A DNA stretch of 64,000 nucleotides, from NCBI GenBank assembly GCA_963808855.1, contig CAWEHA010000003.1, positions 55,315-119,314 of the forward strand, read 5' to 3'. Each line of letters opens with the position of its first letter. The stretch's first letter is position 1. The notes beneath the pieces are model-generated. The model was not told the origin of the DNA. It did not search any database and saw only the letters and a list, made by a program, of their open reading frames with translations. Made by a program: the position numbers and the translations under genes. The stretch is from an uncultured Actinomycetota bacterium. GTDB lineage: Bacteria; Actinomycetota; Actinomycetes; Propionibacteriales; Nocardioidaceae. Positions 13,709-16,301 of this stretch are shown piece after piece.

Positions 13709-13842
13709 CCGAACGTCCGACCATGGCTCCCCTCTGTGTCAAGCAGGGGTGGCGATTGGTGGTTCTAGGATCGGTGGTGGCGGGTCCGGGAAGTGACTTG
13801 TCCGAAGAGCCGGTGTGGGGATGTGAGCCGGTCGCGCTGGAG

Positions 13843-14955
13843 TCAGAGTCGTTGCCCCGTTGTCCTCCCGGGCCCGTCACCTCGCCCGGTCGTCGGCTGA
13901 GCGCTGATGTCGTTGAGGGCGTCGTCGAGCATGGTGCGGTAGACGATGTCGGACAGTCGGCGTTTCAGGCAGCGCATCGCCTCCATCGAGGACTTCCCGG
14001 CGAGCTTCTTGCGGTCGTAGTAGTCGCGGCCCGGGGACGGGTTGCGCAGCTGGACGACGGCCATGATGTGCAGGACGTGGTTGATCTGCCGGTTCCCGGC
14101 CCGTGACAGCCGGTGGCGCACCGCGTCTCCCGAGGAGGCGTCGATGGGTGCGGTGCCGTTCCAGGACGCGAAGTGGCCGCGGTCGGGGAACCGGGTGATG
14201 TCGCCGACCTCGACCAGGATCCGGGCCGCGCCCGGGGGGCCGATGCCGTTGAGGTCCATCAACGTCGACCCGGTCGCGGCCACGAGCTCACGCAGCTCCT
14301 TGTCGACGGCCTTCTTGCGCGCATAGACCCGCTCGAGGTCCGCGACCAGCTCGGCCGCGACCCGGCGGCGGGTCTTGCCCGCGACGTCGCGGGGCCGCAC
14401 CTTCGCCAGCAGCGCCTTGGCCTGGGCCGCGGAGAGGTCCTTCTTCGCCCCGCCGGGGATCAGCTCGACCAGCAGGCGATGGATCTGCGAGGTCATCCGG
14501 GTGTGGTCCTCACCCAGCGACCGACGCCGGTCGACCAGGACCCGCAGCGCCGCGAGCTGCTCGTCATCCACCACCGGCCGCAGCCCGGCCATCCGGGTCC
14601 CGACCAGCGCGACGGAGTGGGCGTCGGTGGCGTCGGTCTTGCGGCCGTGACCGGTCGCGAACACCCGCGCTCGCGCTGAGAGCTTCGGCGGCACGTCGAC
14701 GACCTGCTCGCCGGCAGCTAGCAGCCGGACCGCGACGTGATGGCCGATCCCGTTGCACCCCTCGACCGCCCACACCCGGTGCTCGAGTGCCGGCTGGATC
14801 TCGTTGACGTAACGCCTCATCGCGGCGAACCCGGCCTTGTCGGTGGCGAACCGACCTTCGCCCAGCTTGATGCCGGACCCGTCGACGGCCTCGATCGTGG
14901 CCGACAACTTGTGCGGATCGACCCCGATGATCACCTGCTGGTTGCTGCTCAACAC
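13843..14955 (-). CDS. IS110 transposase/recombinase
   Basis: IGVDPHK, AVEG, KTDATDA (DEDD RuvC-like), IDASSG...RAGNRQIN C-terminal Tnp domain. Confidence 0.95.
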   Translation of the reverse strand: MLSSNQQVIIGVDPHKLSATIEAVDGSGIKLGEGRFATDKAGFAAMRRYVNEIQPALEHRVWAVEGCNGIGHHVAVRLLAAGEQVVDVPPKLSARARVFATGHGRKTDATDAHSVALVGTRMAGLRPVVDDEQLAALRVLVDRRRSLGEDHTRMTSQIHRLLVELIPGGAKKDLSAAQAKALLAKVRPRDVAGKTRRRVAAELVADLERVYARKKAVDKELRELVAATGSTLMDLNGIGPPGAARILVEVGDITRFPDRGHFASWNGTAPIDASSGDAVRHRLSRAGNRQINHVLHIMAVVQLRNPSPGRDYYDRKKLAGKSSMEAMRCLKRRLSDIVYRTMLDDALNDISAQPTTGRGDGPGRTTGQRL

Positions 14956-14989
14956 CCACCTCCCAAACGGACCGCGTCCTCGAACGAGG

Positions 14990-15193
14990 ACCTGAGGACG
15001 GTCGGGTGGGCAGTGCTACTAAGAGCAGAGCAGTCCCTTCTCGAGCCACACCAGACCAGCGGTGACCAGCCGGTCGCAGACCATGGAAGAGCCACACCGT
15101 GCCGGTGGGCAGCCGCACGCGAGAGCCGCCGACCAGTCGCCTAGACCGCAGTCTGGCCAGACCCCGATCCTGCCGTCGAGTCTCTAGTAGCCG
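14990..15193 (-). ncRNA. Predicted IS110 bridge/seek RNA
   Basis: Segments 15129-35 and 15146-52 match the reconstituted target; 15089-94 and 15111-17 match the donor junction; boundaries approximate. Confidence 0.7.
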
Positions 15194-15307
15194 CACTGCG
15201 GGACCGGTGCTCCGTCCGACGGGTCGCCGGGCGGGTCGGCTAAACCTCGCCGAGCGCCATCATGACCGCCTTCGGGTCTGCGACTGGGACCACACCGGGC
15301 GCGTACT

Positions 15308-16167: not shown

Positions 16168-16301
16168 AAGGCAGGACGATAGCTAGGGCGCTAGAAAGGC
16201 GTGGGTGGAAACACCCGGACATGTCACTGTCGGCTCCGCCCGACCATGCCGCCCTGAGCTCGCGGTCGTGCCGAGAGTCGGTGGGCGGAGTGGTGCTGTC
16301 G

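What the first reader, a model, noticed from the sequence alone, without database searches (positions are those of the whole stretch)
13717..15201. IS110 whose bridge-RNA guides can be matched to its own target and donor by eye
Removing the element at the CA core rebuilds target GTCCGAC-CA-CTGCGGG. The non-coding end contains CCGACCA (15129-35, identical to the left arm plus core) and CCGCAGT (15146-52, reverse complement of the right arm ACTGCGG). The circular donor junction TAGCCG-CA-TGGCTC is matched by AGCCGCA (15111-17) and GAGCCA (15089-94, reverse complement). Read on the transposase strand, the target loop precedes the donor loop, as in IS621 bridge RNA. A TTGACA at 13737-42 (minus) comes 17-19 bp from a weak -10 only after circularisation. 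The mechanism is known, but this is a ready-to-test actinobacterial programmable recombinase with a CA/TG core.
Basis: partly seen in the sequence, partly recalled or inferred. Interest (0 to 1): 0.65.

Follow-up and report, generated by a model that had tools for sequence, protein, structure and literature searches.

The report
IS110 element; bridge-RNA guides mis-assigned

Summary
The window holds one intact IS110-family element on the minus strand. Its recombinase gene is at 13843-14955 (DEDD and Tnp domains; NCBIfam "IS110 family RNA-guided transposase"). However, 7-mer hits to both arms arise in 3.5% of shuffles, and neither proposed target guide co-varies with the flanks in about 60 orthologues (p=0.72 and 0.12). 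Both lie in RNA helices supported by compensatory changes.

Covariation places the target-binding loop at 15124-15111 and 15090-15078. The donor guides are at 15041-15035 and 15021-15015.

The target is a genomic repeat, ..CAG-nG-CGGC-A-TGGTCGG.., which is found intact elsewhere in this genome, beside orthologues, and in two sister-species sites. The element is therefore 13725-15189 (1465 bp), a simple insertion between CGGC and ATGG. The circle junction would be GGGGAGCC|TACTAG.

Donor and target share only one crossover base, C, which differs from the CT core of IS621. This copy also carries a donor-guide mismatch and has no evident -10 box. It is a new member of a known kind, of low interest.

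The parts
13725..15189 (-). IS110-family insertion sequence, 1465 bp. There is a 1-nt ambiguity because C is shared at 15190 and 13725. It has no inverted repeats and no multi-base target duplication.
   Evidence: Ends were fixed by comparison with intact target repeats and orthologous junctions.
13843..14955 (-). Recombinase gene, 370 aa, GTG start preceded by GGGAGG.
   Evidence: Pfam PF01548 and PF02371. NCBIfam NF033542 scores 184.7 bits against a cut-off of 140. D/E/D/D and SG motifs align with ISCro4 and IS621.
13725..13842 (-). Right end (RE). The terminal sequence CTTGACACAGAGGGGAGCC is conserved in about 70 orthologues. AGAGGGG (13735-13729) is the left donor arm read by the donor loop. 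TTGACA (13742-13737) is the candidate -35 box.
14956..15189 (-). Left end (LE) encoding the bridge RNA. The first bases, TACTA (15189-15185), form the right donor arm.
15143..15170 (-). 5' hairpin P0 of the RNA.
   Evidence: RNAalifold structure with 92-100% canonical pairs across orthologues. The segment is nearly invariant (GCTC-GG in 50 of 62) although targets vary.
15125..15141 (-). 5' strand of basal helix P1 of the target-binding loop, paired with 15061-15077.
   Evidence: Compensatory pairs, for example 15139:15063 (CG 26 / UA 25), 15137:15065 with five pair types, and 15130:15073.
15111..15124 (-). 5' strand of the target-binding loop, UCUCGCGUGCGGCU. The left target guide GUGCGGC (15118-15112) is identical to the top strand of the left target arm up to the shared C.
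   Evidence: Identity diagonal with the left flank, z 3.9-5.7. Own-flank matches are 4.08/7 against 2.92±0.15 permuted, p≤2e-4.
15091..15110 (-). Apical hairpin P2 between the two target guides.
   Evidence: 15109:15092 shows CG 51 / UA 7, a compensatory change.
15078..15090 (-). 3' strand of the target-binding loop, UCUUCCAUGGUCU. [quoted passage not shown]
   Evidence: Complement antidiagonal with the right flank, z 4.2-6.4. Own-flank matches are 4.89/7 against 3.88±0.16 permuted, p≤2e-4.
15061..15077 (-). 3' strand of helix P1.
15034..15042 (-). Left donor guide GAGAAGGGA. In orthologues AGA[G/A]GGG is identical to the RE sequence AGA[G/A]GGG.
   Evidence: 49 of 50 elements are identical across two states. 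The single mismatch is this copy: RNA AGAAGGG against RE AGAGGGG.
15015..15021 (-). Right donor guide UAGUAGC, the reverse complement of G-C-TACTA at the left junction.
   Evidence: 60 of 63 elements match across six sequence states.
15190..15215 (-). Left half of the target repeat, ..GGAGCACCGGTCCCGCAGTGCGG-C.
   Evidence: It matches the intact units GGAGCCCGCAGCGCGGC-A-TGGTCGGGC on contig C14.
13700..13724 (-). Right half of the target repeat, ATGGTCGGACG..
16232..16254 (-). Intact, unoccupied unit of the same repeat, GGGCGGCATGGTCGGGCGGAGCC, about 1 kb from the element.

Best explanation
A 1465-bp IS110-group insertion sequence (13725-15189, minus strand) encodes a DEDD/Ser recombinase. Its 234-nt left end encodes a bridge RNA built like that of IS621. 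The RNA has a 5' hairpin (P0) and then a long helix (P1) that closes the target-binding loop. The 5' strand of that loop (15124-15111) has the same sequence as the top strand of the left target arm. [quoted passage not shown] The two strands are separated by hairpin P2. A donor-binding region follows. Its 5' guide (15041-15035) copies AGAGGGG of the right end, and its 3' guide (15021-15015) is complementary to GCTACTA at the left end. The element sits in a unit of a short genomic repeat, between CGGC and ATGG. The excised circle would join ...CACAGAGGGGAGCC to TACTAGAG.... Shown here: the protein family, the helices, the co-variation of guides with flanks, and the nature of the target. Inferred: transcription of the RNA, circle formation and the exact nicking positions. 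Donor (GAGC-C-TAC) and target (GCGG-C-ATGG) share only one base at the crossover.
For: Protein family. About 70 orthologues share the RE terminus and LE start, and their flanks diverge beyond them. Covariation by permutation: the left flank shows an identity diagonal with 15121-15117, and the right flank a complement antidiagonal with 15086-15083. Left target guide: 4.08/7 against 2.92 permuted. Right target guide: 4.89/7 against 3.88 permuted. Both have p≤2e-4. Left donor guide: 49/50. Right donor guide: 60/63. Helices P0, P1 and P2 carry compensatory changes. The polarity agrees with the IS621 rule, and the handshake bases 3' of the right guides agree with the structural paper. Target repeat: three intact tandem units on contig C14 and one in the window. 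Intact units lie beside orthologues L011, L014, L016, L020, L022, L057, L062 and L063, and in a tandem array in G088. Sister-species sites are G069 (..ATCGGC-A-TGTGGGG) and G073 (..CGCGGC-T-TGAGCG). The second, decayed copy in this genome also sits in such a unit. The base after GGGG in the RE is constant within a lineage, so it belongs to the element.
Against: No empty allele of this exact site was found in a close relative. The one candidate, a 175-nt contig from run X15, reads CCCGCAC-TG-GAGCC-ATGGTCGGG. It is one base longer than the repeat unit and carries GAGCC, as the element's end does. It fits neither reconstruction exactly and may be an excision footprint. Donor and target share one base rather than a dinucleotide core, which the IS621 mechanism does not predict. 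No RNA-seq data or circle-junction reads are available. The fold of the donor loop is not resolved. This copy has a left-donor-guide mismatch and no recognisable -10 box after the corrected junction, so it may be inactive. No Rfam model matched the left end.
Confidence: 0.82

Rival explanations
1. The element spans 13724-15193 and is flanked by a duplicated CA (plus) / TG (minus) core. The target guides are at 15146-52 and 15129-35, and the donor guides at 15111-17 and 15089-94.
For: All four strings are present, and hits to both arms occur in only 3.5% of shuffles. CA occurs at both claimed ends.
Against: The guide polarity is opposite to that of IS621. The proposed target guides do not co-vary with flanks: 2.16 against 2.19 permuted (p=0.72) and 2.72 against 2.64 (p=0.12). 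The segments lie in helices with compensatory changes. In most orthologues the two bases before CGGCT differ from the two after GCCA. Intact target repeats and sister-species sites contain CGGC-N between the arms.
Confidence: 0.03
2. The crossover lies 4 nt further left. The element would be CGGCTAC...CACAGAGG(GG), and GAGCCA would be part of every target. This is what the X15 contig suggests if it is a true empty site.
For: X15 reads CCCGCAC-TG-GAGCCATGG, which differs by one base from left junction(..TG) joined to right junction(GAGCC..). The left donor guide AGAGGGG would then end exactly at the crossover.
Against: The base after GGGG (A, C or T) is constant among copies within a genome but differs between lineages, and it does not co-vary with the guide, so it is inherited with the element. 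Intact repeats and the G069 and G073 sites have CGGC-N, not GAGCCA. L078 keeps GA-GC-TAC at its left junction.
Confidence: 0.07
3. The anatomy is as in the best explanation, but this copy is a decaying, immobile relic rather than an active element.
For: It is the only element of 50 whose left donor guide mismatches its own right end. Its first 20 LE bases differ from the consensus, so TTGACA-N18-TTTCAT of the orthologues becomes TTGACA-N18-AGACTC. The genome has only one intact copy plus one copy with an in-frame stop.
Against: The 370-aa reading frame is intact and keeps the catalytic motifs. Helices P0-P2 and the other three guides are intact. One RNA-DNA mismatch may be tolerated.
Confidence: 0.3

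Closest known systems
IS621 (E. coli) bridge-RNA-guided recombinase, IS110 group (Durrant et al. 2024, PMC11208160; Hiraizumi et al. 2024, PMC11208158)
   Same: It has a DEDD RuvC-like domain plus a Ser Tnp domain. The non-coding RNA lies in the long left end upstream of the gene. The target loop comes before the donor loop. The 5' guide of a loop has the sequence of the top-strand left arm, and the 3' guide is complementary to the right arm. One or two bases 3' of each right guide pair only with the partner DNA, as handshake guides do. The left donor guide is discontinuous. The target is a short genomic repeat. A -35 box lies in the right end.
   Different: The protein match to IS621 is weak (E 1.6e-9, over the Tnp domain only). 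The right end is 118 nt long and ultra-conserved. IS621 has a CT core shared by donor and target. Here the donor reads C-T and natural targets read C-A, so only C is shared. The left junction is always CGG-CT and the right junction always GC-CA.
ISCro4 transposase (PDB 9t56)
   Same: It is the best solved-structure relative (E 2.2e-11). The D, E, D, D and SG motifs align.
   Different: Identity is low, and nothing about its RNA was compared here.
Actinobacterial IS110-group elements such as IS110/IS116/IS900 (recalled from memory, not tested)
   Same: They come from high-GC Gram-positive hosts, have no inverted repeats or target duplication, and insert in one orientation into a short consensus site that contains CATG.
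   Different: No sequence comparison with these named elements was made here, so the relationship is only a lead.

Membership tests
IS110 family, IS110 group (bridge recombinase) | N-terminal DEDD (RuvC-like) domain | tested here: met
   PF01548 at E 9.4e-21. GVDPHK, WAVEG and KTDATDA align with the D, E, D, D positions of ISCro4.
IS110 family, IS110 group (bridge recombinase) | C-terminal Tnp domain with catalytic Ser | tested here: met
   PF02371 at E 1e-21. ..ASSGD.. aligns with ..YESGS.. of ISCro4. NF033542 scores 184.7 bits against a cut-off of 140.
IS110 family, IS110 group (bridge recombinase) | No terminal inverted repeats and no multi-base target duplication | tested here: met
   The junctions are CGGC|TAC and GAGCC|ATGG, with one base shared.
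IS110 family, IS110 group (bridge recombinase) | Left non-coding end longer than the right end, upstream of the gene | tested here: met
   The LE is 234 nt and the RE 118 nt.
IS110 family, IS110 group (bridge recombinase) | Target-binding internal loop whose two strands co-vary with the left and right flanks in IS621 polarity | tested here: met
   (p≤2e-4 for each strand). The loop is closed by helices P1 and P2, which show compensatory changes.
IS110 family, IS110 group (bridge recombinase) | Donor-binding guides that co-vary with the element's own ends | tested here: met
   49/50 and 60/63. The fold of this loop is not resolved.
IS110 family, IS110 group (bridge recombinase) | Identical core dinucleotide (CT in IS621) in donor and target | tested here: not met
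   The donor reads GAGC-CT-AC. About 13 intact repeat units read CGG-CA-... The sister-species sites read CA (G069) and CT (G073). Only C is shared. This bears on the mechanism, not on family membership.
IS110 family, IS110 group (bridge recombinase) | Promoter rebuilt across the circle junction | tested here: inconclusive
   TTGACA is invariant. The orthologue consensus gives TTGACA-N18-TTTCAT, but this copy gives AGACTC at that position. No transcript data are available.
IS110 family, IS110 group (bridge recombinase) | RNA bound by the recombinase; circular intermediate | not testable with these tools
   No sequencing run of this organism was found.
IS1111 group | Bridge/seek RNA in a long right end; 7-17 bp subterminal inverted repeats | tested here: not met
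   The guides that co-vary with the flanks and ends are in the LE. The RE is shorter than the LE. The conserved RE folds weakly on the sense strand.
Rfam RNA families | Match of the left end to a curated model | tested here: not met
   No hit in 14956-15189 even at E≤10.

The most novel reading that the evidence does not exclude
In this actinobacterial clade, donor and natural target may share a single crossover base rather than a dinucleotide core. The donor reads GAGC-C-TAC and the target GCGG-C-ATGG. Both 3' guides, and the last base of the left target guide, are fully complementary only to the recombined junctions. That would extend the handshake principle into the core and bias the reaction toward insertion. 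The fixed outcome, with the left junction always ..GGCT and the right junction always ..GCCA, would then reflect strand-specific transfer.
Probability: 0.3. Interest if true: 0.5.

Novelty: new member of a known kind. Interest (0 to 1): 0.27.

Why it matters
The mechanism is already established for IS621, so the element itself adds little. There are three practical gains. First, matching guides by eye in a single copy gave a wrong core, wrong ends and three wrong guides out of four, so such calls need orthologue covariation and intact target copies. Second, the corrected map gives testable sequences for anyone wanting an actinobacterial bridge recombinase: the target ..CAGTGCGG-C-ATGGTCGG.., the circle joint GGGGAGCC|TACTAG, and the four guide segments listed in the report. 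An orthologue with a matched donor guide would be a better starting point than this copy. Third, the single shared crossover base is worth a look by those studying how these enzymes exchange strands.

Tried and rejected
- **Empty site in related genomes.** I searched 61 related genomes with the joined flanks. No hit spanned the joint.
- **Sequencing runs.** Runs found with the element plus flanks hold only related IS pieces and the right-flank gene. One short X15 contig crosses position 15197. Runs found with the left flank alone laid nothing.
- **Metagenome scan.** The pattern CCGACCA-N0-20-TGCGGGACCGGTGC returned 26 unrelated hits.
- **Joined flanks of orthologues.** Searching 25 Terrabacter genomes gave two informative sister-species sites. 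Searching 251 Nocardioidaceae genomes gave nothing new.
- **Raw mutual information on the MAFFT columns.** It was too noisy with 43 sequences and one misaligned gap. I replaced it with motif-anchored permutation tests.
- **RNAalifold from the first LE base.** It pairs the right donor arm with its own guide, which is an artefact. I refolded from position 22.
- **Earlier notes of this scan.** They held nothing relevant to this element.

Full report
**What is there**

The minus strand of 13843-14955 encodes a 370-aa protein. It has the two domains of IS110 transposases, PF01548 (DEDD) and PF02371. It scores 184.7 bits on NCBIfam NF033542, "IS110 family RNA-guided transposase", against a cut-off of 140. 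Its nearest solved relatives are the ISCro4 and IS621 recombinases. The D, E, D, D and Ser-Gly motifs align.

The genome holds one other copy, on contig C2. It is 86-91% identical and has an in-frame stop.

**Check of the observation**

A 7-mer hit to both arms, in either orientation, arises in 3.5% of dinucleotide shuffles of the non-coding end. That is suggestive but weak.

The published rule for IS621 is as follows. The 5' strand of each loop has the sequence of the top-strand left arm plus core. The 3' strand is the reverse complement of core plus right arm (PMC11208160).

**Orthologues**

A scan of species-representative genomes returned 80 loci encoding proteins 61-80% identical. Their right ends stop at the conserved CTTGACACAGAGGGGAGCC(A). 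Their left ends start at (nn)CGGCTACTTG. Beyond these points the flanks differ. I aligned 63 left ends.

**Covariation**

Permutation tests gave two clean signals:
- An identity diagonal links left-flank positions -3, -1, x1 and x2 with RNA positions 15121, 15119, 15118 and 15117.
- A complement antidiagonal links the first four bases of the right flank with 15083-15086.

With motif-anchored segments:
- The left target guide matches its own flank at 4.08 of 7 positions, against 2.92±0.15 for permuted flanks.
- The right target guide matches at 4.89 of 7, against 3.88±0.16. Both have p≤2e-4.
- The donor side is sharper. AGA[G/A]GGG in the RNA equals the same heptamer in the right end in 49 of 50 elements.
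- The segment [A/T]AG[T/C/A]AGC is the reverse complement of GCT[A/G/T]CT[T/A] at the left end in 60 of 63 elements, over six sequence states.

One of them is nearly invariant across elements whose targets differ.

**RNA structure**

The consensus fold gives:
- a 5' hairpin P0 (15170-15143);
- a 17-bp helix P1 (15141-15125 with 15077-15061), with many compensatory pairs, for example CG 26 / UA 25 at 15139:15063;
- an apical hairpin P2 (15110-15091), with CG 51 / UA 7 at 15109:15092.

P1 and P2 enclose an internal loop whose two strands are exactly the two co-varying segments. The fourth string, 15111-17, is a real guide, but it is the left target guide.

One or two bases 3' of each right guide match the partner DNA: GC matches the end of the left donor arm, and C matches the last base of the left target arm. 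This is as described for the handshake guides of IS621 (PMC11208158). The left donor guide is discontinuous, as in IS621.

**Boundaries**

In most orthologues the two bases before CGGCT differ from the two after GCCA, so they cannot be a duplicated core.

The flanks of many loci contain intact copies of a short repeat of the form ..C.GC[AT][GC]-nn-CGGC-A-[TG][GA]..CGG[AG]C. One genome has it as a 33-nt tandem array. The window's own genome has three tandem 27-nt units, GGAGCCCGCAG-CG-CGGC-[A/G]-TGGTCGGGC, on contig C14. It has one more unit in the window at 16254-16232.

Two sister-species sites, orthologous to the right flanks of L061 and L055, read ..ATCGGC-A-TGTGGGG and ..CGCGGC-T-TGAGCG. 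So "x1x2CGGC" belongs to the target.

The window's junctions, CCCGCAGTGCGGC|TACTAG and GGGGAGCC|ATGGTCGGAC, are a simple insertion of TAC...GAGCC between CGGC and ATGG of such a unit. The element is 13725-15189, 1465 bp. Copy 2 sits in another unit.

The base after GGGG in the right end is constant among copies within one genome but differs between lineages. It is therefore inherited with the element. This argues against placing the crossover further left.

**An unresolved point**

Donor (GAGC-C-TAC) and target (GCGG-C-ATGG) share one base at the crossover, not a dinucleotide. Left junctions always read GG-CT and right junctions GC-CA. The left target guide and right donor guide encode CT, while the right target guide encodes CA.

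The guides are thus fully complementary to the products rather than to the substrates. Whether this reflects a shifted nick, strand-specific transfer (compare the preprint 10.64898/2026.08.31.748434), or something else cannot be decided here.

The single X15 contig that crosses the site reads CCCGCAC-TG-GAGCC-ATGGTCGGG. It is one base longer than a repeat unit and carries the element's last five bases. It may be a deletion footprint.

**State of this copy**

The reading frame, helices and three guides are intact. It is, however, the only element of 50 whose left donor guide mismatches its own right end: RNA AGAAGGG against DNA AGAGGGG.

Its first 20 LE bases also depart from the consensus. The orthologues' TTGACA-N18-TTTCAT across the circle joint becomes TTGACA-N18-AGACTC here. 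No transcript data exist for this organism.

**Verdict**

This is a new member of a known kind.

Noticed in passing
window 13760-13860 (right end of the element): About 100 nt after, and overlapping, the recombinase stop codon are more than 90% conserved at nucleotide level across 66 orthologues. That is more conserved than the gene itself, and there is no 3-base periodicity. The antisense (plus) strand folds better than the sense strand (-25 against -6 kcal/mol consensus). It also gives weak Rfam hits to the Mycobacterium sRNAs Ms_IGR-2 (24 bits, E 0.015) and ncrMT1302. Its function is unknown; it could be a protein-binding site or an antisense RNA.
   Followed up: partly
genome contig C14 about 380957-381023; window 16232-16254: There is a small family of 27-nt repeats, GGAGCCCGCAGCGCGGC[A/G]TGGTCGGGC, tandem on C14. 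It serves as the insertion target. Related repeats occur in many actinobacterial genomes, for example a 33-nt tandem array in locus L188.
   Followed up: partly
run X15, contig crossing window 15197: A related organism has ..GCCCGACCATGGCTCCAG|TGCGGGACC.. at this site. The target repeat carries the element's terminal GAGCC in place of CGGC. This may be a footprint of an old excision or deletion.
   Followed up: partly
genome contig C2:1179067-1180573 (loci L002/L003/L008): This is a second, diverged copy of the element with an in-frame TGA. Its right-end terminus reads GGGGCGGC instead of GGGGAGCC. It is inserted in another unit of the same repeat.
   Followed up: partly
loci L138, L141, L147, L153 (genome G064): Five copies match only bases 20-139 of the 177-nt right-end query at 92% identity. 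They are a related element, or a fragment, that shares the conserved internal right-end block but not the terminus.
   Followed up: no
loci L077 and L078; L051: Copies in one genome differ exactly at the bases next to the crossover: CC-CG-GC-TAC against CC-GA-GC-TAC. L051 has CGG-AT-AC. This fits target-derived bases at the left junction.
   Followed up: partly
loci L019 and L032: Two elements lie head to tail, 9-28 nt apart, each in its own repeat unit.
   Followed up: no
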